Assembly: GCA_000002445.1 (NCBI GenBank)
Contig: CP000071.1
Location: forward strand, 576,001 to 640,000
DNA: 64,000 bases
From: Trypanosoma brucei
Taxonomy: Eukaryota
Direction of reading: 5' to 3'
A program made the position numbers and the translations under genes. Every line of letters begins with the position of its first letter. The stretch's first letter is position 1. The notes beneath the pieces were generated by a model. That model saw only the letters and a program-made list of their open reading frames with translations. It was not told the DNA's origin and ran no database searches. Shown here piece by piece: positions 3,691-50,988 of this stretch.

Positions 3691-5271
3691 TCAGGACTGC
3701 TGTGTTGCGTATGGATGGCACATACGCACCTCCGGTCCCAAAGAAATTCCCTCCGCAAAGTCCAGCACCCCAACCTCTTCTCCCTCTGCAAATTGATACG
3801 GTGCTGTTTGAATGCTTGGTCTGGCGTAATATTCCTCCACACACTCTTTTTCCCTTTCTTTATTACCTTCAACTCCATCTTCCAAACTTGTTGTTAATGC
3901 TACTGCCGACGTTACCGGTGTTGGTGATAACAAACCGCTTGTCATGACCCCACTGTTGGTTATTGGCCGCTCTCTCCGTCGTATCACTCCACAATGCTTG
4001 TAGAGATCCACAATTAATTCACCACAGCTAATTTCATTTCCATGTGGCCGCCCACCCACCCATTCATAAAGCCGCGGGTGAATGTAACTAAGCATCAGGG
4101 CGGAATTCGTGTCCAGAGGGCGCCCAACGTTTTCGTTGATAAACTCACGGAGAAGGCGCTTGCGTTGCGGAGTCCACTCAAAACCTTTCAATCGGCGCAC
4201 GGCAAAACGGCGGTAGCACCACTTCTCGTCGTGCCGCCCAAAGAGACGACGACTCGCTTCCACCAGCTGAACACAATTGTGTCGCACGTGGCCATTAACA
4301 TCAGGTGCATTGACATCAATGTTGTCAATGGCCTCCATAATAACCGCCCCACGCCTCGGTCGTCGCTCAAACAGCGACTGTCCTTCACCCATGATTCCTG
4401 CTGAGAGAGGCCTAGTCAACAACATACCACCGTACTCCGCATTTACGCTGTCAGCAATGTTGCCATCAACACTATTATTGTTACTCCTGCTGCTACCATT
4501 ATCACTGTTGTTGCGGATGTCATACGCAAAGCTTGTTCGCCTCGAGCGCAACCGGTCAAAATGCGCAGGCTCCACTACAACAGCTACATGCGAGTATCGC
4601 AATGCTGCGGCACGCATACCACTGTAGACATACTGTGCAGCAGTTATCTTTGAGCTGATTTCTCCAGTTCCCATCATGAGGATGATGTCCCCTTCACGAA
4701 GTGTTGGCTCCACGAGGGACCATTCTTCAAGTGGGTGCTCCTCCAGTGGGCTGAAGAGACGTCCCACCGCCTCCTGCTGCCGCCACCACAAAGCGAGACA
4801 CAACACCACATAACTACAGCACCCCAAAATACACGCTGCTGCCACAATCAAACACTTTCTTCCGCGGCACTGGGAGCAAAATCGGTTCCATCCGCTACGG
4901 AATGGGCGTAACACACTGAAACGTCCTAGTTGCTGTTGCTGTTGCTGTTGTTGCTGTTGTTTTGAGTATTGATGCTGATGCTGATGTGTTTGATGTTGCG
5001 TTTGCGAATGGTGATGCTGCTGTTTGTGATGGTAATGATGTGGTTGATACTGTGACTGTGTCTGTGAATGATGCTGATGCTGCTTCTGATGTGTTAAGGG
5101 GAACGAATTTGTGGCAAATGGTGCGATCGATGGGCGCAGTAACGCGTTTTGTGAACAACCTAAATGGATGAAACGACGGCTGTCGACGCGTGGCGCGTGG
5201 AAAAACAAACCCCGTATGCCCCATCGCCGCTGCTGCTGGATGAACAACCCCATCACCTCTACACTATGCAT
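3691..5271 (-). CDS. Membrane-anchored protein with a His/Gln-rich N-terminal region and a C-terminal permuted papain-fold domain (YiiX/YaeF-like, NlpC/P60 superfamily), putative
   Basis: 526-aa ORF with a poly-Q run (Q12) and an HQ-rich tract, and one predicted TM helix (CLIVAAACILGCCSYVVLCLALWW). Domain motifs GDIILMMGTGEISSKI...YSHVAVVV, a mid His (NGHVRHN) and ISCGELIVDLYKHCG fit the permuted Cys/His papain-like amidase pattern. The exact start is uncertain. Confidence 0.5.
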   Translation of the reverse strand: MHSVEVMGLFIQQQRRWGIRGLFFHAPRVDSRRFIHLGCSQNALLRPSIAPFATNSFPLTHQKQHQHHSQTQSQYQPHHYHHKQQHHHSQTQHQTHQHQHQYSKQQQQQQQQQQLGRFSVLRPFRSGWNRFCSQCRGRKCLIVAAACILGCCSYVVLCLALWWRQQEAVGRLFSPLEEHPLEEWSLVEPTLREGDIILMMGTGEISSKITAAQYVYSGMRAAALRYSHVAVVVEPAHFDRLRSRRTSFAYDIRNNSDNGSSRSNNNSVDGNIADSVNAEYGGMLLTRPLSAGIMGEGQSLFERRPRRGAVIMEAIDNIDVNAPDVNGHVRHNCVQLVEASRRLFGRHDEKWCYRRFAVRRLKGFEWTPQRKRLLREFINENVGRPLDTNSALMLSYIHPRLYEWVGGRPHGNEISCGELIVDLYKHCGVIRRRERPITNSGVMTSGLLSPTPVTSAVALTTSLEDGVEGNKEREKECVEEYYARPSIQTAPYQFAEGEEVGVLDFAEGISLGPEVRMCHPYATQQS

Positions 5272-5298: not shown

Positions 5299-5350
5299 TC
5301 CTCCACTTCCACTTCCACTTCCACTTCCACTTCCACTTCCACCTCCACTC
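5299..5350. repeat. (CCACTT)n hexanucleotide tandem repeat (6 perfect + 2 degenerate units)
   Basis: ccacttccacttccacttccacttccacttccactt then ccacctccactc. Lies in the intergenic/5' flank of the 3691..5271 gene. Confidence 0.95.
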
Positions 5351-17274: not shown

Positions 17275-18504
17275 CTACAAGTCACTAATCAAAATGGCAA
17301 CGGAGGAGGCGGAGAAAATGCCACCATTTCCGTATACCAGGGCCCGTTTTGGTACCGGTGTAAGCTGGCGGTCCCCTGCCTCCTCAGAAAGCTGCGCTAT
17401 AGCTTCAGTTATGTTGTACATCGCTGGAACTTCCCACGGGGCACCAAAGCACTGCAGCCCACCATGTGTGTTGATAGGGAACTTGGAAGGGTCCAATACG
17501 CCCCCGTTGTTGAGCATTTCGTTATAGGCTGTTTCCATGAATTCGCCGCCCTTTCCCTCGGGGCACAGGCCAACCGCCTCAACAGCCTGAATCAAACAAA
17601 TAGGAAAGCAGTCATACAAACCAAAGAAGTGAATATCGCCCACGTTCAGATTAGCGGAGAGAAACGCATCCCGAGCAGCATGACGACAAGAGAAAATATC
17701 CGGCACGATGTCATCGCTGGAACCTGGTGGAAAAAGTGGACCAGACGCTTCTGCGACGCTGGCGATTATCGGCTTTGAGCCGCCTAGGTGCCGTTGCTCC
17801 TGTTTCCCCTGCGCAAAGTGTTCGGCGTAGTGCGCTTCGCCTGAAACAATGAGAGCCACGGCACCGTCCGCGCGTCGGGCACACTCTAGCAAATTCGTGA
17901 CTGGCGCCACACAGCGGGAATGCAACACCTCATCAAGGGTGTAGGCTTTCCGGCACATTGCCTCGGGATGCCTCTCAGCCATTTTACTCATCAGTACGGG
18001 CACCATGGCTAGCTGCTCACGTTTCAAGCCATAGCGACTCATGTACCACTGAGCATAGCGGTCATAACCATGTGGAATGCACGGCTCTGGCAGCCCGCTT
18101 CTCCGCAGCGATGCATTGGAGCGCTCTGCAAACGCGCCACTTCCCATGCTCAACACGGCATCTGCGGCAATGACAGCAACCGTCTGTGCGCATCCAGTCC
18201 GCACCAAATCCACGGCCATCCCAAGAGCCGTAATAGGACCTGCCCCACCCGTGTCGACGGTGCGAACTATAAACTTTCCCTTCGTGGGGAATAGGCCAGC
18301 CACTGTGGCTATGTGGTGTGCTTGCATGAACTGTGGGCTTGCCAACGAGGGCACCGCGATGAGAGCTTGCAAGTCACACTGCTTCATGTTTGCATCAACC
18401 AGGGCACATTTGAGAGCGGATGCAGCAAGTTCGTCGACTGACTTATGCAGCTTACCAATACCCGTGCGACCGACACCGACAATGCGCACAACCTGAGATG
18501 CCAT
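17275..18504 (-). CDS. SCP2-thiolase-like protein (thiolase fold, lacks the canonical nucleophilic Cys)
   Basis: 409 aa with thiolase-fold signatures (GVGRTGIGK, C-terminal GNGGIFSAS). The N-terminal catalytic-Cys position reads TVDTGGAGPITALG (no Cys). A YDCF loop is present. This matches the trypanosomatid thiolase-like protein family. Confidence 0.8.
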   Translation of the reverse strand: MASQVVRIVGVGRTGIGKLHKSVDELAASALKCALVDANMKQCDLQALIAVPSLASPQFMQAHHIATVAGLFPTKGKFIVRTVDTGGAGPITALGMAVDLVRTGCAQTVAVIAADAVLSMGSGAFAERSNASLRRSGLPEPCIPHGYDRYAQWYMSRYGLKREQLAMVPVLMSKMAERHPEAMCRKAYTLDEVLHSRCVAPVTNLLECARRADGAVALIVSGEAHYAEHFAQGKQEQRHLGGSKPIIASVAEASGPLFPPGSSDDIVPDIFSCRHAARDAFLSANLNVGDIHFFGLYDCFPICLIQAVEAVGLCPEGKGGEFMETAYNEMLNNGGVLDPSKFPINTHGGLQCFGAPWEVPAMYNITEAIAQLSEEAGDRQLTPVPKRALVYGNGGIFSASSVAILISDL

Positions 18505-18808
18505 GAGTCGTTGAAGGCTAGTATCTTAGTCTGTTATTACCTTTTCAGCTGCTTTCGTAGGGATATCAGGGTGCCAGAATGAAACGAGAACTTGCGCACC
18601 GCACAAAAAAATATCGTCCCCCCAAATTGTAACCAAGTTCCCACACTACCAGAGATACCGAACAGCCCACCTCCCCCCAAAAAAAAATTTCGAACCGCCC
18701 CAACGCAATCTTTCAATTAACACCATTATCATACTTTTGCCTCGGCACAAGCACGTGTATATGACTCCCCCATGTATTTACCTACAGCACTTTAACACCG
18801 TCCCCACG

Positions 18809-20539
18809 CTAAATAATCCAACCACTGGCTACCACATACCACGAAGCAGAATGCACAGCGGAGCTCACAGACAGCGTAACTGGATTAATGGGGCAGTACC
18901 CAACCAGCGTCTGCCCGGCGGTGGCAGCTCGGACCGGCGTGTCAAACTCAACGACTGCGAAGTTGACGCTCGTTCCACCAGCGAACTCTTGGACCTCGCA
19001 TGCGCGAAACCGTAGCACTGCCGGATGCAGAGGGTCCTGGTGCCGTGTACAGCAAGAACATCGCAGACACACCTCTTCCCCTTCCTCTCCATGCCGCGGT
19101 GATCTCGATGGTGGGAATGCCAGAGACAACATCAGCAGCTGCGTCATACGTAGTGGAAGTACAACATCGCTCAACTTGACAAGTGTGTTATACAGAAGTG
19201 GGTGGTTCCATCGATTCACCAGCCACACATTTCGCAGGTACCGAATGCAGCAGTTTTCCCCACACTTCTCATACCCATGGATGGGTGACACCTCTTTCCG
19301 TTGCACGTAGTAACATCTCGGGGACCCGCTATTCCCGGCTGCACCGCGTATCCGCTGTCCAACTGTGAGGTAATGAGCCGGCAGCAATGTCCGATCTTGC
19401 CTTCTTACAATTCCTGGAATGTTGAGTTGGTCAGCCGCTATTATTTGCTCCGTCTCGGCATCCAGATATTTTGTCTCTTCATCCGCGTGAACACCTTCTC
19501 CACCGGACTCTTCTGGAGCCGATGCCATGTACTCCGTGAGGAAGGCACCGAATCCACCACCCTTCCCTGACTTTCGCTTATATCGTTCACCTACAAAGCA
19601 CAACCCCGTACTTGTCTTCTTTGCACTGACACGTGTCAGACCAAGATGGGAAGCAACTACTCGAACATCCGCCTTGCGCTGGAATACATGACCTAATGGA
19701 AAAATCACGTTCGACAGCTGCAGCTGCGAGAGACGTGACAAAAACAGTGTTTGATCGTTGAGGTCTTGCCCTGCAGTGAACGGGCGTGCAATGACACGTG
19801 TATATCTACCGTTCCCCGACTCACTTGCCGCAGCTGAACAAAATACGGTGTCTGCTAGAGAAATGGTACGCGCGTAGTGGCCCGTTGCGACATATTGGGC
19901 TCGTCCTGACGTATGCAATGCGTGAAGAAGTGCACCAAACTTTATCTCCGAATTGCACAGGACATCAACGTTGAGCGTGTTGCCGCGTGCGTAAGAATTC
20001 AGCATTCGATCAAAACACGACGTTACGTAGTGGGAGCTAAAGTTGAACAGTGGAAGAGCTTCACTCTCTGACAGCAAACCCGCAAAGCGCGCCACTTCAG
20101 CAGCGTCGTGGTAATCTTGCTCCGCAGCCTCACACCATCTACGCCGATGATTCCCTCCAACATTCTCACATGTATCACTCGCACTGCCATCAGAGTCCTC
20201 GCTCACATCGTCCCAGTTTTTCATGAAGAGAGGGAAGTAATGCACTGCAGTGGTAGGGTTTTGTTGCATCGGAGTTGTTGCACTACTTTGAGTGATGTCT
20301 GCCCATGCCCGCCGCTTCACGATGGCGTCCATCACGGTGTCTAATGGGAGGGGACGCGGTGACCGCCAGAGCGCTTCCACGTCTCGCCATGTACTTACGC
20401 AACGACATAGGAAAAGCGCAGCGACGGCACTGTCTACTCCACCTGACAGCGCGACAGCTACCCTCACCGCCTGGGACGTCATGCACCGAATCGTGCTCCT
20501 TTCCCTTTGTTGCTTGCGTATAGCAGAAAACACCACCAA
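18809..20539 (-). CDS. MTU1: tRNA-specific 2-thiouridylase MnmA/MTU1-like (mitochondrial tRNA thiolation)
   Basis: N-terminal PP-loop motif AVALSGGVDSAVAA. Other matches: YVATGHYAR, and the MnmA C-terminal pattern (CFVGE...F..F) followed by a long eukaryote-type C-terminal extension. Confidence 0.75.
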   Translation of the reverse strand: MVVFSAIRKQQRERSTIRCMTSQAVRVAVALSGGVDSAVAALFLCRCVSTWRDVEALWRSPRPLPLDTVMDAIVKRRAWADITQSSATTPMQQNPTTAVHYFPLFMKNWDDVSEDSDGSASDTCENVGGNHRRRWCEAAEQDYHDAAEVARFAGLLSESEALPLFNFSSHYVTSCFDRMLNSYARGNTLNVDVLCNSEIKFGALLHALHTSGRAQYVATGHYARTISLADTVFCSAAASESGNGRYTRVIARPFTAGQDLNDQTLFLSRLSQLQLSNVIFPLGHVFQRKADVRVVASHLGLTRVSAKKTSTGLCFVGERYKRKSGKGGGFGAFLTEYMASAPEESGGEGVHADEETKYLDAETEQIIAADQLNIPGIVRRQDRTLLPAHYLTVGQRIRGAAGNSGSPRCYYVQRKEVSPIHGYEKCGENCCIRYLRNVWLVNRWNHPLLYNTLVKLSDVVLPLRMTQLLMLSLAFPPSRSPRHGEEGEEVCLRCSCCTRHQDPLHPAVLRFRACEVQEFAGGTSVNFAVVEFDTPVRAATAGQTLVGYCPINPVTLSVSSAVHSASWYVVASGWII

Positions 20540-21456
20540 ATGCTACGCTATGAAGCCGATGTGAACATGAAGGCCTTCTTTGCGGCCTGCCCTTGAGATA
20601 AAAACACCACGTTGCCTTCAAACGTAATTAGGGGGAAAAAGAAGGAAAGCGGGAGGTACAAGAGAATGCTGGATACCCAGAATGGGTGGAAAATAGCAGT
20701 ACAAAGAGATAGGAGGAGCCGACGGGTATGAAAAGGACTAACAAACGCGCTGCAAGCAAACAGAATAAAACAGCAAAGACACACGCAAATGTGGTCGAAG
20801 GAGGTAAGCAAAAAAGTCATTTGGCTGTGGAACCGCGTACGGCCTCTTCCCCAACACGGGGAAAACGGAAGGAGGTATGGGGCCAATTTGAGGAACAGAC
20901 AGACAAGAATGGTAAGGGGCTATATATATATATATATATAGCGAAGGGACGGCGCACCTATGCCACCGCCGTTCTATTTTTTCTTGATCACACGTACGGT
21001 CCTGCTACCAAATAGATCCGATGAACAGGGCATAACAGGTAAGGGAAGAAAGAATATTACCCGCGCCGTAGATACAGCCATACAAATGCACGGCTGTCGT
21101 TCCCTCCCTTTTCCCTCTCTTGGTTGTTTTTCTTCGTTGCCACCGGGCACCGCGGCAGTGACAAAATGGAGGAGGATACAATAAATCACGCTCATACCCC
21201 CTATCTCATTTGCTGTACGTTAAGTTGCCGCCCGGAGAAGATAAAGAGAGGGAGAGGGTCAAGTGGCGCACCCCCGCGTTTTGTTTTTTTGCCTTCTGTT
21301 CAAATTACTTTCCACCTCGTGTTATTTCTCTCGGATGATTGTGATTGTTTTTGTTACTTTCATTTTTTTTTCTGCGTCCTGTTTAGCTCCCCCACGTTAG
21401 TTCCTTCCTTCTTTTTATGACTCAACCTCATGCCGGGGGGACCCCATTCAAGCCCA

Positions 21457-24400
21457 TCAACGCTGCTGAGCTTCAATATACCATGTCAGATAGTCTCGCA
21501 CCGTCGACACGATGGAGCCACCAGCCGCGGTCAACAGCTGCACAAGTCCCTTAAAAACCTCCGGGTCACGCACAACATCAGCGAGTTCCGATTGGCGCTG
21601 CCCCGTTAACGCTGAGGTCTCGGGATCCAGCTGGTACATCAGATTCTTTACCCAATGGACTACTACGGAGGTGAGCTCCTGGTACATCCCTACATTGCAA
21701 CTACGCACATGTTGTTGCTCTCGTGGGCTTAGTTGTTGGCCAACGGGGCTATCCGACATGCTGTCACCCGTCCGTCGCGGTTTACGCGATCCAGATGACA
21801 ACGATTGCACAAAGGCCACCTCTTCAAGAATTTCTACAAGTACGTGCCGTAGGTGGGAGAAATCCATCTGCAAAGCGAGCGACAAGTAGGCGTTTAACCC
21901 CCCACGCACGGCGGTGTGCGGGAGTAGTGCACTACTTTTGCTCAGCGGTGTTGCTTCACGACCTTTGGTGACGGATTGCATGACAAACTGATCCATCTCA
22001 GATGCGTGATTGACACGCCAAAGCACGGCAAAAAAAGCCCCTTCGGCATCAAGCAGTAATTCAGCCATCAATTTGTAATTACACGGGGGTGGGGACCACC
22101 ATACCGGCTGCTCACACCCTTCTGTGGTACTCGCACCTTCATCACCGCTAAAAGGTCTCTCGGACCTTGTGTACATAGCGGGCGTGATAGCCGCCAACAC
22201 CTTCGGCAATGGAGACAGCAGTGGCGCCATCAAATTGCAGTACTCCACGAGCTGCTCGTCGGAAAGCACAGTGGAGTCAGTGCCTGACGAAAGACCCTCC
22301 TCGCACCCAGCAACAGTCCCCTGTTTCTTTCCTGGGAGGTCGTTGGGAGCCACCTTCGAATGCTCAGACACCTGCTCTTCATGCAACATTCTCATGCTCA
22401 GCGTGACACAACCGCGGCTTCCAGTAATATTACACGGGTCGGAAGCCGACAAGGCACGAATGGCACTTCGCCCTGCCTTCGAGTAGGCCCCCAGCATCTG
22501 CGACAACCCGGCATCCCAACGGCTGCCAACATACTGGGCATTATGCGGCACGATAGATTGTTTGAAAAGATGGGTATCGAGAAGCACAAGACTGACACTG
22601 TTGATGATAGCGTTAAGACACCGGTCACCCGCCGCCTTCTCCCGGGCGGCGGATGATTCGGAAAGCTTTCCGAGAGCTGCCACGCACAACGTGGCGCATT
22701 GCATCATGGAACGCACGGCCAGCGGTCGAACATGTGAAGAGGACTTTTGCGATACGGCAAGCGGTAGCAAGCACCGCTCCATAACGACTGCACCGAGTGA
22801 AGCCACGTCCTCCAGTGATGCATCTACGATTAGTTCATGCGACATGAAATTTAAAAGCTGTGGAAGTGTTGCGTGGAAGGCCACAGCTGGGCACTTCCGC
22901 ATCGTCGGCGGCGTGCGAAGGTTCAAAATGGCGAAGCTTACTCTACCCACGTCTTCCGCCGCCTCCGGAGTGTTCGCCGAAGATTTAGAGCCTGGTGCAG
23001 TGTGTCCCAGAAGTACTTGTAATACGGTATCAGCTAGTTGCACAGCGAGGTGCTGCTTTTGGTCGCGTACACCCAATTGCTTTGAAACAGCCCGTAGCAC
23101 CCCTATAGCCTCCGTTCGCGTTTCTTGGGTATGGCAGCCCAAAAGCATGCATATACGCTCCAACGCGTGCAGCACGGTAAAGTCATCCTGCCCTTGTATT
23201 CCTTGCAGTAAACGTCGCGTCAGCTGCACTTGTACTTCATTTAGGCCGTCGACCTCATAGTCATCTTCGTCTGAGGTCACCGCTGTCGCCTCTAATGAGG
23301 TTGTCACTTCGCGGTTAAGTGCGGCGGTGCAAACACAGGACAGCTGCGCTAGGCACGACTGGGCGCTCTCCACGTCACTACACATTCCACCAACGTAAGC
23401 TACGTTACAAAGGAGCGATAACAGCACATTAAGGGGCTCCTGCCGCATCTGAACGCTTGGGGGCACACTGCCGGCGCCACAGCAGATGAGAACGAGTTTT
23501 TGCAGCACGTGAACGGCTAAGCTGCAGGTCTCAGTGCCAACAGTGCTCTTACCTGAGAGCGCATGAGCCACTGAGTGCAACAGCCTTTCCCACACCAACG
23601 CCATGGTAAATGAGACACGTGTTTGAACACCGCGTGTCGTTCGTTGCTTAACGGAACTCTCCGCTAGAACGGTGCACGAAACCAACTCCTTCACTCCTTG
23701 CAACATATGCATTTGCACTACTGACGAGTTCACGCAGCGTTCGTGGCACATCTGAAAGAAACAAAAGCAGTTTGCAAGCTCCGTGAGTTTAACAGCTTGA
23801 TGTGAACAGTTAGCGTCACGGACGCAGGAGTTCCACACAACGCTGAGGACGTCTACAACGAAACTTGTCACGGCGTGCAGGCACTCGTCTCCTTTCTCCC
23901 TTCGCGCTTCAACGACGTCCACCAGTGCCGGCATAACAATGCCACTGAGATCACGAACATTAATTAAATTAGTAACAACGGGACCCAGCTCCTGGTCGTG
24001 GGAAATGACAGAGTAGCTGAGTACTCGGCGCACGACGTATAGGGCAGCAGTTAGAGTCGGGAAATCCATGCCTTGGTCCCGCAACAAGGCTGCAACACCC
24101 TGCAGTAACTCACGAACTGCTACCACGATCACGGGTGGGGCTTCATGAACGCTCATATTACAGTATTCCCGAGTGATTTCCTCCAGGTGGCCGAAGAGTG
24201 ACTCCATTTGCACCAATATTGCCCTTCGTTGCTGCTGTTGTGACTGCGACTGCTGTTGATATGACTGCTGGGACTGCGTTTGACTCTGCTCCTTACGGAT
24301 GGTAACCAGCAGCTCCACCACCGGCAACCAGCACCTGGAGGAAAAGTGTACACTGTGCCGAGAGGACGCAACCTCGAGCAAACAACCGTGGCAAACGTCC

Positions 24401-27400
24401 CGTAGGGAATCAAAAGCGGAGAGCCGCACCAGTGCCATTTGTGCGGCATCACATTCCGTGTGCAGACCAAAGGCCGCCGACAAAAGCAGACTGCTGCGCA
24501 GTCCAGTCGCGTAGAGCAGCAGGGCGTCTTCCGGAATTTGGTTTCCGTCCACAGCAGCTCCAAACACTGCATTAAGCGAGGGCCACGTGCTCAGGAACAA
24601 ATCCTGTGTGACGCTCGTCCAATATTCTTGTTCCGTGTCTCCACCCTCCCGTATCTCACCATCATCCTCGCATAGTCTGCTGCTGCGAAAGAGCAGCTCA
24701 CGCGTTTCATCCGTAAGACGCCGCCGCACTACATTGAATTCCGCCTCTTTGCGATCTTCACTTGTGAAGAAGAACGCATCCATCCTCATGTGTGACACCA
24801 CTGAGCCACGTCGCTTCGCTTCTGTTAGCATGGACTCGTGCACGTTGGACAAAGAGCGTGTGCTGACCTCCTCGAAGACGCTGTCCGTGAAGCGACGGGG
24901 GAAATCTTTATTGTCATTGCAACCTCGCATCTGCGCGTAAAAAGAGGCCGCAGTCATTTTTGTCGTGGAGACGTTTGGGTTGTGCAGGTTGGTATTCAAC
25001 ATGATAATTCCTATACCAGCAATGAAACACGCATCCTCCGATGCGAATGGAAAGACGTCCGTATCCACGCAACTCCTTGATCCTGCCTTATAGTATGCAC
25101 TGCAGAAGAACTCGATGAGACGCTCAATTCGCTGTCCCTCCTTGGGCAGCTTCACGACACGGAACAGTTCCCTCAGTCCGTTTATGAGTGTCTTTCCAGC
25201 CAGCGGTAGCAAGTCCATGAAAGCTCGACATACCTGGAGAGATATAACAGCTGGGTATGACAGAATCTCTGCAACTGCATCGGAGTTCAGCGACGGAGTT
25301 TCCATAAGGAACTGCGCGATGTGTTGCACCTTCTCCTCGGCCTGAGGCGTGGCGGGCTCCGGTATATGACGGTGCGACCAATTATTCTCCGCTATGGCGC
25401 GGTCAGCCTCTGTTTGCCACTCCTCGTCCCTGATGTTAAATAACTTCCGTAGCCCCTTTATGGGTGAGCTATTGATGGCTTCTACAAAACGCAGCTGTTC
25501 TATTTTCTTCTTCCGGTTTAGCAACCTTGGAAGCGGCTTCCAGTTGGACAGGCCAGTGTTCTGGGGAATCTGTTTCGTTAATATTTCTACCACCAGCGCG
25601 AGGCCGTGAAGCGCCAGAAATGGCACGGATCGCTGCATCATAACTGTACCGTCATCTGCGAAACTAGCGCAATTCACTGTCTGAGTCACGTTAGCGGAGT
25701 CGCCTCCACCAGTTTCAGCGTAAACGATGCTTTCGTTGCTGGCCTCTGCGTTGCCCACAGCGCTGCCGCTCGCAGTGCCTGAGGCGCGTGGTTTCGGACC
25801 CTCGATGTCCACGAACTCCTCCGGCCTCGCCGTGCAAACCGCCCGGGAGAGCACGGTGACAACCTTCTGGATCAAATTGAGCTGGTGCCAGTGAACATTG
25901 AGGTCAAAGCGACGGTAGCAACGTAAAAGAAGTGGTGCCTCACCCGAAACGGCCGAGCCTTGAAAAAACGTATCGATGATATGATGAAGGAAAGATCGTT
26001 GCATAAAGGGCGGTGTGCTGTCAGACCCCAGTAATCCAAAGATTCCATTACAGTAGATGGAGCCAACCTCCGTGGAGAGGCAGTCAGGACATGACGTCAC
26101 GACCCGTCGGAGGGTCTCCAAACCGGCATCCAACACCGAAGGCCGCAGGGACATGACACAGTTGAAAATGCCATCTAATATGCGCTTCCTCCAGTTGTCG
26201 TGTCGTAACACGTACTCCAGTTCCGCGGCACTTCCTTCGCACAGCTCACTCACGGTATCCTTCAGTAAACGAACCGCCAAGAATTGGCCCTCGGCACGAT
26301 CACCGCAGTGCTGAGCAACACACGCCGTGTATTCTGGGGAGAAAGATGTAGCTAACACCGACTCCAGCACACAGCAGAGAATGCGGTGGCTTCGTGAATG
26401 GATTGGCACGTTATCATCAAACTCTGTGGACCTTGATAACGTCACAGAATCATCCACTGAGGCATCACCGCACCTACTCAAGTGCGAGGTACGTCCATAC
26501 CACTTTGCAAACCCAAACAGATTACTTACAACGTCACTCTTTGTCGTCCGTTCATCCTCAGAGGCCGTGGCACTTTTAACTGACACAATGGAAAACAAGT
26601 ACCCGACGACGGGGCGGACAAGACCCACGAGATGCGTAATACTTTCGAGCAACGTGGGTCCGAGTAGCCGTTTCAGTTCCTCCACCCGCTGCTCTGCCAT
26701 GCACCGGTCCTCCTCGTCATCGGCAGCGCGTACCTCACCGTTGTGACCGTTGCCAGTAGCCTCGACCATGTCCTGTATATGACCTATCTCGCGGGATGCA
26801 AATTGCCTCTCAAAATGAACGACGCATTGACGCAACTGCTTCAGAATATCTATACACACCTGTACTGCGAAGCGCACCGAAGGAAAGTCTGTCGACCCTG
26901 AAAGCGTATCAACACAAATTCCTATAGTGTTCCTACAAACGTTAATATCGTGTCCGAGACTCACGAACAATGGGTTGCTTTCTTTACGGCGCGCAGCGCC
27001 ATTTCCTCCTGCCTCCCCTCCATTGTTCGCAGTTGGATCGTCATACACTTCCCTAAGTACCTGCCGCAGGGTGTTGTCGATGATGGAAAAGCAACGAGTG
27101 ATGACAATACGCGCTGCGTTGCGCGCAATATTGCGTAACTTACCGTTCTCCGATGAAGTACCAACAAACAAGGTGGCAAGAAACCTTGCAAGATCCTCCA
27201 AATTTCGTTTAGATAAGTCACTGGAGAAGCCCGCATTGGGGTCTGGGTGGACCAGTTGGCCTCTCTCATCGCCTTCAGCTGCCACCGCCGTCGCGGGTGA
27301 AGGGTCTTCACACGGTGACGCGCTTGGTGAAGAATTTGGTGGGGGTTTAGGGTCTTCAGCAGCCCCCGTGTCGGCCTCGGAGGCGCCTTGACGCAACGGT

Positions 27401-27648
27401 CCCGACGCCTCACCACCAGTTCTTTCAGTAACTGAAGCGTTACCACTTGCAGACCCTGACGATGTCGTTGCATCCCCTAAACTCACCTCTTTTATCCATT
27501 CATCGACGTTCCGAAGTACCTCCTGTAGTTTCCCCTTAGGGGTTCCGCTCACCACGTGTCGTGCCTGCAGGAGAAAGGCATGCAATTGAACCATAAAAGT
27601 TGCGCGGTTCTCTAGGTCCACCACCGTCTTATTTGGTGCGAGCTGCAT
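21457..27648 (-). CDS. Sec7-domain ARF guanine-nucleotide exchange factor, BIG/GBF1-like (2063 aa)
   Basis: Central Sec7 domain: LPKEGQRIERLIEFFCSAYY...DACFIAGIGIIMLNTNLHNPNV...FYAQMRGCNDNKDFP. The catalytic Glu lies in the PKEGQRIERL motif. Long armadillo-like flanks. Confidence 0.85.
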   Translation of the reverse strand: MQLAPNKTVVDLENRATFMVQLHAFLLQARHVVSGTPKGKLQEVLRNVDEWIKEVSLGDATTSSGSASGNASVTERTGGEASGPLRQGASEADTGAAEDPKPPPNSSPSASPCEDPSPATAVAAEGDERGQLVHPDPNAGFSSDLSKRNLEDLARFLATLFVGTSSENGKLRNIARNAARIVITRCFSIIDNTLRQVLREVYDDPTANNGGEAGGNGAARRKESNPLFVSLGHDINVCRNTIGICVDTLSGSTDFPSVRFAVQVCIDILKQLRQCVVHFERQFASREIGHIQDMVEATGNGHNGEVRAADDEEDRCMAEQRVEELKRLLGPTLLESITHLVGLVRPVVGYLFSIVSVKSATASEDERTTKSDVVSNLFGFAKWYGRTSHLSRCGDASVDDSVTLSRSTEFDDNVPIHSRSHRILCCVLESVLATSFSPEYTACVAQHCGDRAEGQFLAVRLLKDTVSELCEGSAAELEYVLRHDNWRKRILDGIFNCVMSLRPSVLDAGLETLRRVVTSCPDCLSTEVGSIYCNGIFGLLGSDSTPPFMQRSFLHHIIDTFFQGSAVSGEAPLLLRCYRRFDLNVHWHQLNLIQKVVTVLSRAVCTARPEEFVDIEGPKPRASGTASGSAVGNAEASNESIVYAETGGGDSANVTQTVNCASFADDGTVMMQRSVPFLALHGLALVVEILTKQIPQNTGLSNWKPLPRLLNRKKKIEQLRFVEAINSSPIKGLRKLFNIRDEEWQTEADRAIAENNWSHRHIPEPATPQAEEKVQHIAQFLMETPSLNSDAVAEILSYPAVISLQVCRAFMDLLPLAGKTLINGLRELFRVVKLPKEGQRIERLIEFFCSAYYKAGSRSCVDTDVFPFASEDACFIAGIGIIMLNTNLHNPNVSTTKMTAASFYAQMRGCNDNKDFPRRFTDSVFEEVSTRSLSNVHESMLTEAKRRGSVVSHMRMDAFFFTSEDRKEAEFNVVRRRLTDETRELLFRSSRLCEDDGEIREGGDTEQEYWTSVTQDLFLSTWPSLNAVFGAAVDGNQIPEDALLLYATGLRSSLLLSAAFGLHTECDAAQMALVRLSAFDSLRDVCHGCLLEVASSRHSVHFSSRCWLPVVELLVTIRKEQSQTQSQQSYQQQSQSQQQQRRAILVQMESLFGHLEEITREYCNMSVHEAPPVIVVAVRELLQGVAALLRDQGMDFPTLTAALYVVRRVLSYSVISHDQELGPVVTNLINVRDLSGIVMPALVDVVEARREKGDECLHAVTSFVVDVLSVVWNSCVRDANCSHQAVKLTELANCFCFFQMCHERCVNSSVVQMHMLQGVKELVSCTVLAESSVKQRTTRGVQTRVSFTMALVWERLLHSVAHALSGKSTVGTETCSLAVHVLQKLVLICCGAGSVPPSVQMRQEPLNVLLSLLCNVAYVGGMCSDVESAQSCLAQLSCVCTAALNREVTTSLEATAVTSDEDDYEVDGLNEVQVQLTRRLLQGIQGQDDFTVLHALERICMLLGCHTQETRTEAIGVLRAVSKQLGVRDQKQHLAVQLADTVLQVLLGHTAPGSKSSANTPEAAEDVGRVSFAILNLRTPPTMRKCPAVAFHATLPQLLNFMSHELIVDASLEDVASLGAVVMERCLLPLAVSQKSSSHVRPLAVRSMMQCATLCVAALGKLSESSAAREKAAGDRCLNAIINSVSLVLLDTHLFKQSIVPHNAQYVGSRWDAGLSQMLGAYSKAGRSAIRALSASDPCNITGSRGCVTLSMRMLHEEQVSEHSKVAPNDLPGKKQGTVAGCEEGLSSGTDSTVLSDEQLVEYCNLMAPLLSPLPKVLAAITPAMYTRSERPFSGDEGASTTEGCEQPVWWSPPPCNYKLMAELLLDAEGAFFAVLWRVNHASEMDQFVMQSVTKGREATPLSKSSALLPHTAVRGGLNAYLSLALQMDFSHLRHVLVEILEEVAFVQSLSSGSRKPRRTGDSMSDSPVGQQLSPREQQHVRSCNVGMYQELTSVVVHWVKNLMYQLDPETSALTGQRQSELADVVRDPEVFKGLVQLLTAAGGSIVSTVRDYLTWYIEAQQR

Positions 27649-28174
27649 CGGTCAGTGTCCCACTAATAGGCAAACAAGTTCACCCTAATCCTTGTTACTT
27701 CCTTCCTTTCCTTTCCTTTCCCCTCTTTAACAATGCACCTTTTCGTGCGTCCTAATTACGAGCGGCTTCCTACTTCACTTACTCACCAAGTTCCACATTT
27801 CGAGTACAAAGATATTGGGAGGGAGAAAACAGCCAAATCAAACACAGGGGGAGTGTAAGGCCAAAGACCAAAATGTGTAGGTGGGGCGCAAAGCGAAGGC
27901 AAAAGAAGAATCGAACAGACTTACTTCGAACAGAAGTACGGATTGCTTTCATCCGAAGAAGCAAAGGATAGATAAAGATCGCACTCACCTAACAGCTGCG
28001 ATGCAGCAGTGATAGCCTCGATGAGCTGCAGCGGCATCAGCAACAATCGGTCGCTCACGGCAACGCATCTAAAAATTAGTAACGGCAACTAGTCCACACC
28101 AAAAACGAACGCATAGGCGAGATTGTACACGGAAGTCACAGTAGCAGCGACGGAAAGAGTAGTTCGATCCATTA

Positions 28175-29605
28175 CTAACCTACTGAGCCCCTGAGTGTTT
28201 CCCCAACGCACTCCACAAGTCGTGTTGGAAAGTGCTTTACCTCACGAGGTTCGTTAGCACTGGAGCCACTGTACTGATAACTCAGCTTTCGCTTCATCAA
28301 GGAGATGAATTCGTCAAAGTCCAGTGCACCGTCTCCGTTACGGTCAAAGAGGGCCATAATAAGGTCGAGCTCTTCCTCTTTGAATGGTCTCACACCAGCT
28401 GCCTTCACAACGCGGTTAAATTCACGCTTTCCCAGTGAGAGTCCTGACTCCATGAAAAGACGCACCGCCTCCCCTATAGTATCTGCTTCACGCATAACCT
28501 GATGAAAGCCAATCCATTGGTCCACCGTGACCGTTGTGTTAATCCCTCTCATCCTTCGTATGTTCTCCACTACGTAAAAAGGTACATTGCTTCCAATCAT
28601 CTGTTTCGCCAAAAGTTTTCCAAACTCCTCGGCACCGATGCAACCAACATTATTGGGGTCGAACAGGTGAAACTCCGCCCGCCAGATGGCCTCATTAATG
28701 GCATTAATACTCCCCTCCATCTCGTCGTAGGAGCAGCGAAGTTCCCCATCATCGCCAAAGAGTCGCCTGACAATTCCGTTCTTGCAGCCGGTTGTCAGGG
28801 AATTCGCCTCGTTAGCGGTGCAGCCCAAGCCGCGCAGAACACCTGCAAACTCACTAAGTCCTAGGGTACCAACCCTATCCTTGTCTACGATAGTGAATAA
28901 CATGCGGATGTCCTTCAACTTTGCCGTCAATAAAACCATGAGGAACGTATACTCGGTTAAGTTGAGACAAACATTGCCGTCAGCATCCAGCGAAGCAAAG
29001 AGATCAGACATATCTTCTAGCGACGAAGCCCCCAGGGGTTCATCCTTCCTGAGGACTAACACTGAGCGCACAAAGTCCTCCATTGTCATAAGCATCGCCC
29101 CGTCGTCGGCTGACCGCACCGACGCATAGTGCCTGAAGCGGCTCTTAATGCTACGCAAGTAATAGGGAATTAGGTACTCCGGAGTGGCCAGGGGGTGACA
29201 CAGAACCGTAGCGGCACCCCAGGAGGAGGCACCGATGCAGGCCACACAAAGGGTGAGTGCTGTGCACCCCATGCGACTGTCACCAACGATACGTTGACAC
29301 ATCTCACGCAGCCACAGTCGCGACCACAGCATGGCGGTAACGGAATATGAATGGCAGTGTCCAGCCTGAGGAAAGGAAACCTTGACCGCTCGCCATATTG
29401 AGAGCATCCCTTTTTTTTTATATTTTGTCTCTGTGCTCCCCTTAGAGCTGAATAAACAAATGATGTTCACTCTGACAGCAAACCTTTGTGTGCTTCCCGA
29501 CACACGGACACATCGCGAAAAGAAGCAACGCAAAAGCGGAAAGAAAACGTGGAAAGAAAAAAGCAGACAGAGCAGCGAGCGGAACAGAGGTCCGTCACCT
29601 AACAT
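28175..29605 (-). CDS. MICU1-like EF-hand protein (mitochondrial calcium uptake regulator family)
   Basis: Two canonical EF-hands (DADGNVCLNLTEYTFLM; DRNGDGALDFDEFISLM). The N-terminal RFRHYASVRSADDGAMLMTMEDFVRSV resembles the MICU1 FRQFASIE..MTPRDFL motif. The N-terminus is consistent with a presequence. Confidence 0.65.
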   Translation of the reverse strand: MLGDGPLFRSLLCLLFSFHVFFPLLRCFFSRCVRVSGSTQRFAVRVNIICLFSSKGSTETKYKKKGMLSIWRAVKVSFPQAGHCHSYSVTAMLWSRLWLREMCQRIVGDSRMGCTALTLCVACIGASSWGAATVLCHPLATPEYLIPYYLRSIKSRFRHYASVRSADDGAMLMTMEDFVRSVLVLRKDEPLGASSLEDMSDLFASLDADGNVCLNLTEYTFLMVLLTAKLKDIRMLFTIVDKDRVGTLGLSEFAGVLRGLGCTANEANSLTTGCKNGIVRRLFGDDGELRCSYDEMEGSINAINEAIWRAEFHLFDPNNVGCIGAEEFGKLLAKQMIGSNVPFYVVENIRRMRGINTTVTVDQWIGFHQVMREADTIGEAVRLFMESGLSLGKREFNRVVKAAGVRPFKEEELDLIMALFDRNGDGALDFDEFISLMKRKLSYQYSGSSANEPREVKHFPTRLVECVGETLRGSVG

Positions 29606-29804
29606 CTGCAGGCAAAGTTAGTTATCAATCCGTTAAATACGCACCTCCCCCTACCACCAATAGTGCCCAATACTACAGGTCATAAGACGTTAAGACTGCC
29701 AACTGCCATCAACGTAACGTTCAAACGTCCAAGGAAAATCTTGGCGACAACATAAATGTAGAAAAACAAGAAGTCAATGCACAAAAGCGGGTGCACGGGC
29801 AACG

Positions 29805-32800: not shown

Positions 32801-33011
32801 GCGTGAAACCATGGGCGTTCTTCAACTTCAGGAGAGGGTGCCCACCGCGCGGCATGGCGCTCGCAGCACAAAGCGGAACAGCACAACGTCGAATCATGTC
32901 GCTAACCTTCTTGACGGTACCACCAATTTCACGTGACTTGTCTACAGTTTTCTTGATCACACTCCTTATTACCCCCTCTTCCTTCTTTGCTCTTGCTCCG
33001 TCACTACACAA
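29805..33011 (-). CDS. Presequence protease (PreP/Cym1), M16C pitrilysin-family metallopeptidase
   Basis: 1068 aa. Inverted zinc motif HVLEH...E (ISHVLEHTTLCGSKKYP). Family-typical length and four-domain architecture. Confidence 0.85.
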   Translation of the reverse strand: MCSDGARAKKEEGVIRSVIKKTVDKSREIGGTVKKVSDMIRRCAVPLCAASAMPRGGHPLLKLKNAHGFTHKSTRRFDELNITAYEWQHDSTGALYYHLDTNDRNCTFCIGFRTPAKDNKGISHVLEHTTLCGSKKYPVRDPFFMMLKRSLNNFMNAMTGADYTLYPFATTNARDFCNLLDVYLDAVFHPLLRLEDFKQEGHRVEVEEDDSAKRRLVYNGVVFNEMRGVVSEPSQHYAHSLMKTMLPNTHYEHISGGYPPEVLKLTYEELVAFHKRHYHPTNSITITYGEQNPGSWMATLNEYFSSFERGEVVAVFGLAEKNRFAEPKRVTMEGPLNPMGNPQCQKRVSVSFGVQKEDKNMKDIVELSVLDILLSSGPSSPIYQALIESQIGSRYAPMNGYSSYLASPLVSYGVEGVDEARANSDEEVLSAVITALERVSKEGFEQRRVQSVIFQEELQQRHRAADYGVNLCTGLCAMGLCRAENNPLDFIDWLPHLRQLEAEQAKSLLPRISRNLLNNPHRALVSVSAKKDFLDSLRDTITHMEEKLNDGATDAQKDEIKKETEKWLERVRAPQNGDILPTLKVGDIPCQSFQEPLPQPKADGQNTSLLRAPPPLKPPVGVYTIGYPTNGLVYVHGLAPFSAATVLLLEKAENDALAGIPLSHSLLGSLGAGKYTFKELSIATDLVCGGFSFSPQLNQSYCNKSEYITGTAYGFYTTKEKLHDALELLKMTLLEPHTSVEDDGVRGRTLSVAKARCSGVIQRLQHEGNRVATSLAVSHLTRCGAVRESWHGLAQSSYASEMLEKLQSSNEGISHSAVATILEHHSCFVQSFAANLCRGVLWATCEEQHRCEVENMLASFLSGFPKGEDTSSCACLPSLGRIAREDVVELCRSLPIDTSYAAIAIANDLDWTHKQQAPLRVACQLLANEYLHRRVREEGGAYGSGVKATLGAEVGGVTMSSYRDPTPEATVRVFKEAGDWLSEASNVTQLRVDESKLRLFAGIDAPYAADSFGESYFLHGIRPEQKQEMRDALLSVEPKDVVEVARYFDVGKNHGAVVGILRPEERKE

Positions 33012-50550: not shown

Positions 50551-50988
50551 ATGTTTTCGTTACGGGAGATACTTTCGCAACTTCCCTCCGACGGTGCAAC
50601 TAAATGGATACGGGTTGAGAATGTTAAATCCCCCATGTCAAGTTTGGATGTTTCCCAGTTGTTTCCCGATGCAGTGAGTTGGGATTTTTTGTCGAGTGTT
50701 CAAAGGACAGACTATCTCGTCACTTTTCGGAGTGAATCATTCGCTAGAAAAGCGATGCGAAGTGCATGCGGGTTTTCATACCTTGGTGAGAGGCTCAAGT
50801 TTTCATATGCGGAGCCTGGCGACATTGCAGAAGGCGCATCACCCGCGCGAGTGACAATTGCCCACCCCCGTCTATATTTGCTGCCTCCAGAGTTTTCTTA
50901 TGAGGAGCGAGTAGCTGAAGCAGATCGTATTATTGCATCTGTGAGCACAACCGATTCGTATAACAACGCCTGGGTAGATACCTACTAG
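50551..50988 (+). CDS. Small hypothetical protein with an RRM-like fold pattern (145 aa), first ORF of the plus-strand unit
   Basis: RVENVKSPMSSLDVSQLF...DYLVTFRSESFARKAM...YLGERLKFSYAEP resembles an RRM-like beta-alpha-beta layout. Weak; it could be non-coding. Confidence 0.35.
   Translation: MFSLREILSQLPSDGATKWIRVENVKSPMSSLDVSQLFPDAVSWDFLSSVQRTDYLVTFRSESFARKAMRSACGFSYLGERLKFSYAEPGDIAEGASPARVTIAHPRLYLLPPEFSYEERVAEADRIIASVSTTDSYNNAWVDTY

What the first reader, a model, noticed from the sequence alone, without database searches (positions are those of the whole stretch)
3691..5271. His/Gln-repeat, membrane-anchored protein carrying a permuted papain-like (YiiX/NlpC-P60-type) domain
The N-terminus is extreme low-complexity ((CAG/CAA)n-encoded Q12, HQ-rich), followed by one TM helix. 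The C-terminal half carries the ordered motifs GD[IL][IL]..G..S..I........YSHV, a conserved His, then CxELI. These are typical of permuted papain-fold amidases and acyltransferases (the YaeF/YiiX and LRAT-like families). Such enzymes act on lipids or peptidoglycan-like amides and are unusual in trypanosomes. The poly-Q/His tract could be expansion-prone.
Basis: inference. Interest (0 to 1): 0.5.

Follow-up and report, generated by a model that had tools for sequence, protein, structure and literature searches.

The report
Mitochondrial membrane-anchored YiiX-like thiol enzyme
This trypanosome gene (Tb927.8.1770), so far labelled only "hypothetical", encodes a mitochondrial, single-pass membrane protein whose large domain is a very divergent relative of the bacterial YiiX/YaeF lipid-binding cysteine enzymes, which gives a testable idea of what this conserved parasite protein does.

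Summary
Window 3691..5271 (-) is a 526-aa ORF with a His/Gln-rich tract (Q10, not Q12), one TM helix (aa ~139-163) and the motifs GDII..., YSH228V and C416GELI. The protein is identical to T. equiperdum TEOVI_000662800 and corresponds to T. brucei Tb927.8.1770 (Q582A5).

- The family profile aligns at 99.7% HHalign probability to bacterial proteins that are bona fide Pfam PF05708 members.
- His228, Glu313 and Cys416 align with the BcPPNE triad and are invariant across kinetoplastids.

New points:
- The family's fourth catalytic residue (Tyr) is Leu/Met throughout this eukaryotic clade.
- Two disordered insertions split the domain.
- Pfam does not detect the protein.
- Published proteomics place it in the ATOM40-dependent mitochondrial importome.
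- Charge asymmetry around the TM helix predicts a domain facing the intermembrane space.

It is most likely a membrane-tethered thiol acyl-hydrolase or acyl-transferase acting on a lipid or lipidated substrate. Activity and topology are inferred. The poly-Q length varies (Q8 or Q10) among Trypanozoon genomes.

The parts
3691..5271 (-). Complete ORF, 526 aa plus stop. It corresponds to T. brucei Tb927.8.1770 / UniProt Q582A5 and is identical to T. equiperdum OVI TEOVI_000662800.
5095..5271 (-). N-terminal Arg-rich region (aa 1-59), the presumed mitochondrial targeting sequence. The TREU927 annotation starts at Met7.
   Evidence: Sequence. Orthologues begin MLRxxRR or MFRxxxR. TargetP-positive, and listed in the ATOM40-dependent importome of Peikert 2017.
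4930..5094 (-). His/Gln-rich low-complexity tract (aa 60-114), ending in Q10 (aa 105-114, window 4930-4959). It is present only in T. brucei-group species and T. congolense. The Q run is Q8 in two other Trypanozoon genomes.
4783..4857 (-). Single transmembrane helix (aa ~139-163). Its N-terminal flank is positively charged and its C-terminal flank is neutral to acidic.
   Evidence: Kyte-Doolittle maximum 2.6. AlphaFold helix 136-172 with pLDDT 87-95. Flank charges are +3 to +7 against 0 to -4 in all 20 full-length orthologues.
3712..4734 (-). Permuted NlpC/P60 (YaeF/YiiX-like, Peptidase_C92-type) domain, aa ~180-520, interrupted by two disordered insertions.
4588..4590 (-). His228 codon (CAT), within the Y-S-H-V motif. 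It is equivalent to His49 of BcPPNE and YiiX.
   Evidence: PMC3142127
4333..4335 (-). Glu313 codon (GAG), within the IMEAIDN motif. It is equivalent to Glu64, the third triad residue. D316/N317 are equivalent to Glu67/Asp68 of the BcPPNE S1' site.
   Evidence: PMC3142127
4114..4116 (-). Leu386 codon (CTG), within the G-R-P-L-D motif. This is the position of the family's conserved catalytic Tyr (YiiX Tyr115 in GKPYD; BcPPNE Tyr127). It is Leu, Met or Ile in the whole eukaryotic clade.
   Evidence: PMC3142127
4024..4026 (-). Cys416 codon (TGT), within the S-C-G-E-L-I motif at the start of a helix. It is equivalent to the catalytic Cys154 of BcPPNE and Cys128 of YiiX.
4369..4551 (-). Disordered, length-variable insertion 1 (aa 241-301), lying between the His strand and the Glu strand. 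The two residues are 15 apart in BcPPNE and 85 apart here.
   Evidence: pLDDT below 50; variable among orthologues
3850..3954 (-). Disordered, length-variable insertion 2 (aa 440-474), lying between the Cys helix and the C-terminal strand region. It is about 150 aa longer in Leishmania.

Best explanation
The ORF encodes a nuclear-encoded mitochondrial protein conserved across Kinetoplastea. It has three parts: an Arg-rich N-terminal targeting region, one transmembrane helix, and a C-terminal YaeF/YiiX-type circularly permuted NlpC/P60 (papain-fold) domain. In the T. brucei and T. congolense lineage a dispensable-looking His/Gln-rich spacer follows the targeting region.

The N-terminal flank of the helix is positive and the C-terminal flank is acidic, and a targeting signal precedes the helix. 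The helix most likely arrests in the inner membrane, leaving the N-terminus in the matrix and the catalytic domain in the intermembrane space.

The domain keeps the Cys416-His228-Glu313 triad and the polar S1' residues of BcPPNE (Ser227, Asp316, Asn317, Tyr353). It therefore probably works as a thiol enzyme. Cys416 would attack an acyl (ester, amide or thioester) linkage of a membrane lipid or lipidated molecule and form an acyl-thioester intermediate. That intermediate would be resolved by water (hydrolase, phospholipase or deacylase activity) or by an acceptor (acyltransferase activity). The oxyanion-stabilising Tyr of the bacterial family is replaced by Leu/Met, so this step must be handled differently.

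Shown here or in the literature: the fold, the homology, residue conservation, and mitochondrial import (from published proteomics). Inferred: inner-membrane location, topology, catalytic activity and lipid-type substrate.

Approximate confidences:
- YiiX-family domain: 0.93
- Mitochondrial: 0.9
- Domain facing the intermembrane space: 0.6
- Catalytically active on an acyl or lipid substrate: 0.55
For: Fold:
- The AlphaFold model has a confident core (pLDDT above 85 at aa 180-240, 305-440 and 475-520).
- Foldseek's only significant PDB hit is 3kw0.
- In the viral library the model hits Marseillevirus OPG091, which is of the poxvirus G6R family, at E 8.5e-6.

Sequence:
- 3 of 22 orthologues hit PF05708 and 4 of 22 hit NCBIfam 'YiiX family permuted papain-like enzyme', all below threshold, and no other enzyme family recurs.
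- A family-profile search found about 200-aa bacterial proteins. Seven of the eight chosen are PF05708 members, one scoring above the gathering cut-off (bacterial gene context).
- HHalign of the family against these proteins gives 99.7% probability, E 1e-25, over 208 columns.
- These proteins hit 3kw0 at 9.5e-17 and 2if6 at 4e-6.

Residues:
- His228, Glu313 and Cys416 align with His49, Glu64 and Cys154 of BcPPNE. They are invariant in all 22 kinetoplastid orthologues and in nearly all wider relatives. Numbering is from PMC3142127.
- G194-D195 and R359 match the superfamily's 'GD' motif and its Arg partner.
- The BcPPNE lysine-binding residues Ser48, His49, Glu67, Asp68 and Tyr90 correspond to the invariant S227, H228, D316, N317 and Y353.

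Location:
- Tb927.8.1770/Q582A5 is in the mitochondrial reference set of Peikert et al. 2017 (mitochondrial proteome, TargetP-positive).
- It is flagged in the ATOM40-dependent importome: fold change 0.70, p 0.043, 5 peptides.
- It is not listed in the outer-membrane proteome.

Topology: flank charges around the TM helix are consistent in all 20 full-length orthologues.

Substrate class: YiiX crystallised with a fatty acid in a hydrophobic S1 tunnel. Characterised permuted NlpC/P60 enzymes (LRAT, PLAAT, Tox-Act1, TseH, LnsA) act on acyl lipids or lipoproteins.
Against: - The query itself has no Pfam, NCBIfam or PDB sequence hit.
- HHalign of the family profile against the single 3kw0 sequence is weak (6.6% probability, Cys helix only). 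The sequence link therefore depends on intermediate sequences that were themselves found with the family profile.
- The Tyr that Xu et al. call essential is Leu/Met here. This could mean altered chemistry or loss of activity.
- MitoFates did not predict a presequence.
- The protein is absent from the 2009 mitochondrial membrane proteome list.
- The ATOM40 RNAi effect is modest.
- No experiment bears on topology, activity or substrate.
Confidence: 0.6

Rival explanations
1. The protein is a pseudoenzyme or structural protein. The papain-like domain would be retained as a scaffold, for example as an accessory subunit of a mitochondrial membrane complex, and no longer catalyse anything. This would parallel Euglena complex-I subunit NDUEG7, a TM-anchored permuted papain-like domain facing the intermembrane space.
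For: - The conserved catalytic Tyr is replaced by Leu/Met in the whole clade.
- Xu et al. regard this Tyr as essential.
- Some relatives have lost the Cys. The Angomonas deanei homologue has Glu to Thr and Cys to Asp, and two environmental sequences have Cys to Pro.
Against: - Cys416, His228 and Glu313, and the S1'-type residues S227, D316, N317 and Y353, are invariant across Trypanosoma, Leishmania, Leptomonas and Bodo. Cys, His and Glu are also kept in Cryptobia, although position 316 is Asn there. Such conservation is hard to explain without catalysis or ligand binding.
- The protein is not in the T. brucei respiratome list.
- There is no sequence similarity to NDUEG7, even at E<=10. NDUEG7 also has 3 TM helices against 1 here.
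- LRAT needs only the Cys/His dyad.
Confidence: 0.2
2. The domain is the same enzyme type, but it faces the mitochondrial matrix or sits in the outer membrane rather than facing the intermembrane space.
For: Topology was only inferred from flank charges and the order of signal then TM helix. Some presequence-plus-TM proteins are sorted conservatively. ERV1 knock-down had no significant effect (0.76, p 0.27).
Against: - The N-flank is +3 to +7 and the C-flank 0 to -4 in every orthologue.
- The T. brucei helix contains no Pro and is followed by charged residues, which is typical of stop-transfer anchors (established knowledge of TIM23 lateral sorting).
- The protein is not in the outer-membrane proteome column, and its level depends on ATOM40.
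- Stop-transfer inner-membrane proteins do not need the MIA/ERV1 pathway, so the ERV1 result is uninformative.
Confidence: 0.25
3. The protein is a peptidoglycan-type or peptide amidase or peptidase, as for canonical NlpC/P60 enzymes.
For: It belongs to the NlpC/P60 superfamily. BcPPNE bound a free amino acid in S1', and the equivalent residues are conserved here.
Against: - Trypanosomes have no peptidoglycan (established knowledge).
- The closest structures are the permuted YiiX and BcPPNE, whose S1 pockets are hydrophobic and in one case hold a fatty acid.
Confidence: 0.05
4. The motif resemblance is chance, and the protein is a kinetoplastid-specific fold unrelated to papain-like enzymes.
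For: The query gives no direct Pfam or PDB sequence hit. The direct profile-versus-3kw0 HHalign is weak.
Against: - HHalign to PF05708 members gives 99.7% probability.
- Two independent HMM libraries both point to YiiX/C92 for several orthologues.
- All three triad residues align.
Confidence: 0.03

Closest known systems
YaeF/YiiX-like permuted NlpC/P60 enzymes (Pfam PF05708 Peptidase_C92; structures B. cereus BcPPNE 3kw0 and E. coli YiiX 2if6; poxvirus G6R/OPG091)
   Same: - Same permuted order of catalytic residues: GD strand, then Ser-His, then Glu, then Cys at a helix start.
- Same triad: His228, Glu313, Cys416.
- Conserved equivalents of the BcPPNE S1' residues.
- Membrane association, which is typical of the group.
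   Different: - Eukaryotic and mitochondrial, with an N-terminal targeting region and a TM anchor in place of a bacterial signal or lipoprotein peptide.
- About 340 aa instead of about 170-200, because of two disordered insertions and a conserved C-terminal extension.
- The conserved catalytic Tyr (GKPYD) is Leu/Met (GRPLD or GRPMD).
- Below the Pfam and NCBIfam thresholds.
LRAT / PLAAT (HRASLS) family (Pfam PF04970), the eukaryotic permuted NlpC/P60 phospholipase A1/2-acyltransferases
   Same: Permuted His-then-Cys order, thioester chemistry on acyl lipids, and a single-TM membrane tether. This is the best-characterised model for how the protein may work.
Euglena gracilis complex-I accessory subunit NDUEG7 (PDB 8iuf chain E7)
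   Same: A euglenozoan inner-membrane protein with a permuted papain-like domain in the intermembrane space. Its predicted placement is similar.
Bacterial permuted NlpC/P60 lipid-targeting toxins and lipoprotein acyltransferases (TseH, Tox-Act1, LnsA)
   Different: They form distinct clades, are secreted toxins or envelope enzymes, and show no close similarity.

Membership tests
YaeF/YiiX-like permuted NlpC/P60 (PF05708 / MEROPS C92) | Scores above the curated Pfam or NCBIfam threshold for the family | tested here: not met
   The query has no hit. 3 of 22 orthologues hit PF05708 (best E 0.0067) and 4 of 22 hit NF007458 YiiX (best E 0.0014), all far below the cut-offs.
YaeF/YiiX-like permuted NlpC/P60 (PF05708 / MEROPS C92) | Significant profile-profile homology to bona fide members | tested here: met
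   HHalign of A1 against A3 gives 99.7% probability, E 1e-25, 208 columns. Seven of the eight A3 sequences are PF05708 hits, one above the gathering score. A3 hits 3kw0 at 9.5e-17 and 2if6 at 4e-6. Caveat: the A3 sequences were found with the A1 profile, and A1 against the single 3kw0 sequence is weak.
YaeF/YiiX-like permuted NlpC/P60 (PF05708 / MEROPS C92) | Fold of the solved family members (five-stranded sheet plus permuted Cys helix) | tested here: met
   [not shown]
YaeF/YiiX-like permuted NlpC/P60 (PF05708 / MEROPS C92) | Circularly permuted order: catalytic His N-terminal and catalytic Cys C-terminal | tested here: met
   His228 precedes Cys416. They align with His49 and Cys154 of BcPPNE.
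YaeF/YiiX-like permuted NlpC/P60 (PF05708 / MEROPS C92) | Third polar triad residue (Glu64 in BcPPNE and YiiX) | tested here: met
   Glu313 in the IMEA motif aligns with Glu64 in IMES, and is invariant. It lies 85 residues after the His, instead of 15, because of an insertion.
YaeF/YiiX-like permuted NlpC/P60 (PF05708 / MEROPS C92) | Conserved catalytic Tyr (YiiX Tyr115, BcPPNE Tyr127; the papain Gln19 equivalent) | tested here: not met
   The position is Leu386 (GRPLD against GKPYD). It is Leu, Met or Ile in every member of the eukaryotic clade, and Tyr (rarely Phe) in the bacterial relatives and both structures.
YaeF/YiiX-like permuted NlpC/P60 (PF05708 / MEROPS C92) | Cys-His-Glu side chains in catalytic geometry, and a hydrophobic S1 pocket | not testable with these tools
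   Model coordinates are not returned by the tools. Only alignment-level equivalence could be shown.
YaeF/YiiX-like permuted NlpC/P60 (PF05708 / MEROPS C92) | 'GD' motif on strand 1 with its Arg partner on strand 5 (NlpC/P60 cluster signature, PMC10318531) | tested here: met
   G194-D195 and R359 are invariant. This was tested at the sequence level only.
LRAT / PLAAT (PF04970) | Profile or fold similarity closest to LRAT-family members | tested here: not met
   [not shown]
Canonical NlpC/P60 peptidoglycan endopeptidases (PF00877) | Cys N-terminal to His (non-permuted order) | tested here: not met
   [not shown]
Euglena NDUEG7-type complex-I subunit | Detectable homology to NDUEG7 and presence in complex I | tested here: not met
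   [not shown]
Mitochondrial presequence-plus-stop-transfer inner-membrane proteins | Imported into mitochondria through the outer-membrane translocase | tested here: met
   This rests on the literature, not on a test run here. Tb927.8.1770/Q582A5 is flagged in the ATOM40-dependent importome and the mitochondrial proteome, and is TargetP-positive but MitoFates-negative.
Mitochondrial presequence-plus-stop-transfer inner-membrane proteins | Single TM helix with a positive matrix-side flank, and the C-terminal domain in the intermembrane space | tested here: inconclusive
   The charge asymmetry is consistent in all orthologues. Actual membrane and topology were not determined.

The most novel reading that the evidence does not exclude
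Kinetoplastids (and related uncultured protists) possess a previously unrecognised enzyme anchored in the mitochondrial inner membrane and facing the intermembrane space. It is of the YiiX type and has replaced the family's oxyanion Tyr, with the conserved Tyr/His at position 402 possibly taking over that role. It remodels or deacylates a mitochondrial lipid (for example cardiolipin, PE or an N-acyl amine lipid) or a fatty-acylated protein. No enzyme of this family has been assigned such an activity in any mitochondrion.
Probability: 0.3. Interest if true: 0.6.

Novelty: new variant of a known kind. Interest (0 to 1): 0.42.

Why it matters
About half of trypanosome genes are labelled 'hypothetical'. 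This one is conserved from Bodo to Leishmania and Trypanosoma, is made as protein, and is imported into the mitochondrion. Even so, Pfam gives it no domain and no paper in the searched library mentions it.

Assigning it to the YiiX/YaeF branch of the NlpC/P60 superfamily, with an intact Cys-His-Glu triad, turns it into a concrete enzyme candidate. It would be a membrane-tethered thiol acyl-hydrolase or acyl-transferase in an organelle whose lipid remodelling enzymes in trypanosomes are poorly known.

It also bears on the enzyme family itself:
- It would be a eukaryotic, organellar clade of a family regarded as bacterial and viral.
- The clade has systematically lost the Tyr considered essential, which is informative about the family's mechanism.
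- It parallels the papain-like intermembrane-space subunit of Euglena complex I.

No close counterpart turned up outside Euglenozoa-like protists, bacteria and large DNA viruses in the searches run here (a human counterpart was not searched for specifically), so the protein is of some interest for parasite-specific biology.

Tried and rejected
- Direct Pfam, NCBIfam and PDB sequence searches with the query alone gave only low-complexity noise (Zip, CLN3, TFIIA, SepX) from the His/Gln tract.
- The A1 profile against PDB sequences found nothing.
- HHalign of A1 against the single 3kw0 sequence was weak: 6.6% probability, Cys helix only.
- The afdb50 fold library was not available.
- I first guessed the gene lay near the thiolase Tb927.8.2540. 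This was wrong. The thiolase-like ORF in the window is a different gene. The correct ID, Tb927.8.1770, came from the UniProt accession in the Peikert 2017 tables.
- Orthology with Euglena NDUEG7 was considered and rejected. NDUEG7 is LRAT-like, has 3 TM helices and shows no sequence signal.
- No text in the paper library mentions Tb927.8.1770 or its accessions.
- The TrypTag supplements that are held, and the diplonemid mitoproteome tables, have no entry for it.
- The sub-mitochondrial map of Pyrih et al. 2023 is not held.
- Most wider relatives come from unnamed metagenome contigs, so the distribution outside Kinetoplastea could not be named.
- The window has no tRNA or Rfam features.
Full report
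**The observation.**
The minus-strand ORF at 3691..5271 is real and 526 aa long. Its GC content is about 0.52, against 0.35-0.45 in the flanks. Residues 60-115 are extremely His/Gln-rich, with 25 Q and 15 H in 56 residues. The tract ends in a run of ten glutamines, not twelve, encoded by mixed CAA/CAG codons. TRF finds the corresponding array at 4929-4961. A single strongly hydrophobic segment follows at aa ~139-163, with a Kyte-Doolittle maximum of 2.6. AlphaFold predicts it as a confident helix. The conserved His is the one inside YSHV.

**Identity and conservation.**
The protein is 100% identical to T. equiperdum OVI TEOVI_000662800 and essentially identical to T. brucei TREU927 XP_847010 / UniProt Q582A5. 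Via that accession it is Tb927.8.1770. The neighbouring window ORFs match the published neighbours: the EF-hand protein at 28175-29605 is MICU1 (Tb927.8.1850), and the M16C protease at 29805-33011 is the pitrilysin-like Tb927.8.1860. Orthologues exist in all Trypanosoma lineages sampled, and in Leishmania, Leptomonas, Bodo saltans and Cryptobia. A wider set of N-terminally anchored relatives comes from unnamed eukaryote-like metagenome contigs. None of the orthologues returned in the first homology search carries a precomputed Pfam domain, and sources call them 'hypothetical'. The His/Gln tract occurs only in the T. brucei group and T. congolense. Among four Trypanozoon genomes the Q run is Q10 in T. 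equiperdum OVI and TREU927, and Q8 in DAL972 and T. b. equiperdum. The 520-aa TREU927 model differs only in starting at Met7.

**Is it a permuted papain-like (YiiX-type) domain?**
Direct searches with the query alone gave nothing beyond low-complexity noise, and the family profile found no PDB sequence. Four lines of evidence nevertheless converge.

1. When each orthologue was scanned separately, the only enzyme family that recurs is YiiX/C92. PF05708 is hit by 3 of 22 (best E 0.0067), and NCBIfam 'YiiX family permuted papain-like enzyme' by 4 of 22 (best E 0.0014).
2. An exhaustive profile search returned 54 proteins. Among the 47 more distant ones, PF05708 is the only Pfam family matched, by 10 members with best E 1.7e-9.
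3. Eight of these are proteins of roughly 180-230 aa; the one whose genomic context was checked lies on a bacterial-type contig, and seven are PF05708 members, one above the gathering score. Their alignment matches the kinetoplastid family at 99.7% HHalign probability (E 1e-25, 208 columns). It also matches the solved structures 3kw0 (E 9.5e-17) and 2if6/YiiX (E 4e-6).
4. The AlphaFold model has a confident core, with pLDDT above 85 for aa 180-240, 305-440 and 475-520.
   - Foldseek finds 3kw0 as the only significant PDB match.
   - In the viral library the model hits a Marseillevirus OPG091 protein at E 8.5e-6. OPG091 belongs to the poxvirus G6R branch of the same family.

**Residue mapping.**
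I used the HMMER alignments to 3kw0 and 2if6, the residue numbering of Xu et al. 2011 (PMC3142127) and a joint MAFFT alignment.

- His228 corresponds to His49, Glu313 to Glu64, and Cys416 to Cys154 of BcPPNE (Cys128 of YiiX). All three are invariant in the 22 kinetoplastid sequences and in nearly all wider relatives.
- The BcPPNE residues that hold the bound lysine in S1' are Ser48, His49, Glu67, Asp68 and Tyr90. They correspond to the invariant S227, H228, D316, N317 and Y353.
- The superfamily's GD motif and its Arg partner (PMC10318531) correspond to G194-D195 and R359.
- The family's fourth catalytic residue is the Tyr of GKPYD in YiiX (Tyr115, which hydrogen-bonds the fatty-acid head group) and Tyr127 in BcPPNE. 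Here it is Leu386 in GRPLD. It is Leu, Met or Ile in every member of the eukaryotic clade, and Tyr (rarely Phe) in the bacterial relatives.
- Xu et al. consider this Tyr essential. A Tyr/His at position 402, conserved within the clade, is a candidate substitute, but this could not be checked without coordinates.
- Two disordered, length-variable insertions (aa 241-301 and 440-474) interrupt the domain.
- The conserved C-terminal segment (aa 475-520) aligns with the C-terminus of the bacterial proteins.

**Location.**
In the supplementary tables of Peikert et al. 2017 (PMC5436138), Tb927.8.1770/Q582A5 belongs to the mitochondrial reference set.

- It is marked for TriTrypDB annotation and for the mitochondrial proteome of Panigrahi 2009 / Mach 2013.
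- It is TargetP-positive and MitoFates-negative.
- It is not marked in the outer-membrane, membrane-proteome or respiratome columns.
- It is flagged as part of the ATOM40-dependent importome. In whole-cell extracts the fold change is 0.70 with p 0.043, from 5 peptides and 16.5% coverage.
- ERV1 knock-down had no significant effect.

The orthologues start with short Arg-rich N-termini of the MLRxxRR or MFRxxxR type. In all 20 full-length orthologues the 15 residues before the TM helix carry +3 to +7 net charge, and the 15 residues after it carry 0 to -4. With a targeting signal preceding a Pro-free helix, the standard stop-transfer route would leave the N-terminus in the matrix and the catalytic domain in the intermembrane space. 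This is inference, not data.

**Mechanism proposed.**
The protein is most likely a membrane-tethered thiol enzyme. Cys416, activated by His228 and Glu313, would attack an acyl linkage of a lipid or lipidated molecule at the membrane surface and form an acyl-thioester. Water or an acceptor would then resolve that intermediate.

The substrate class is inferred from three points:

- YiiX holds a fatty acid in a hydrophobic S1 tunnel, and permuted NlpC/P60 structures have hydrophobic S1 pockets.
- Characterised permuted members act on acyl lipids or lipoproteins: LRAT, PLAAT, Tox-Act1, TseH and LnsA.
- This protein has a membrane anchor.

The conserved polar S1' residues suggest an amine- or amino-acid-like leaving group or acceptor.

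**Novelty and verdict.**
This is a divergent YaeF/YiiX-type domain, not LRAT-type and not a peptidoglycan enzyme. It is a core kinetoplastid mitochondrial protein rather than an oddity, and it lacks the family's Tyr. No paper in the searched library mentions the gene. I rate it a new variant of a known kind, of moderate interest. It converts a conserved 'hypothetical' mitochondrial protein into a testable enzyme candidate, but its activity, substrate and topology remain unproven.

Noticed in passing
window 5302-5349 (+ strand): A near-perfect (TCCACT)8 hexamer array, which reads (AGTGGA)n on the coding strand. It lies about 30 nt upstream of the ATG of this gene, in the presumed 5' UTR or intergenic region, and is followed by (CTTTTT)3.
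   Followed up: no
window ~48100-51240: All long ORFs to the left of this gap are on the minus strand, and those to the right are on the plus strand. This looks like a divergent strand-switch region, a probable polycistronic transcription start zone. No tRNA or Rfam features occur anywhere in the window.
   Followed up: partly
window 17275-33011 (- strand): Two other ORFs in the same transcription unit, MICU1 (Tb927.8.1850) and the pitrilysin/PreP-like M16C protease (Tb927.8.1860), are listed as mitochondrial; a thiolase-like protein and an MnmA/Mtu1-like tRNA thiolase ORF (localisation not checked) lie in the same unit. The thiolase-like ORF is not the well-known Tb927.8.2540.
   Followed up: partly
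P0048 (Angomonas deanei ADEAN_000968700): The homologue in this endosymbiont-bearing trypanosomatid keeps the Ser-His but has Thr in place of Glu313 and Asp in place of Cys416. It may be a degenerate, non-catalytic copy.
   Followed up: partly
[not shown]
   Followed up: yes
window 4795-4878 (aa 132-158): The T. brucei TM helix and its N-flank are unusually Cys-rich, with seven Cys at C132, C135, C140, C147, C151, C152 and C158. Only C158 and Y154 are nearly invariant among orthologues.
   Followed up: no
P0032-P0034 (966-1317 aa, unnamed Logan contigs): These are much longer relatives with Ser/Thr-rich N-terminal extensions of 300-600 aa in front of the same TM-plus-domain module. Their position 316 is Val instead of Asp.
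   Followed up: no
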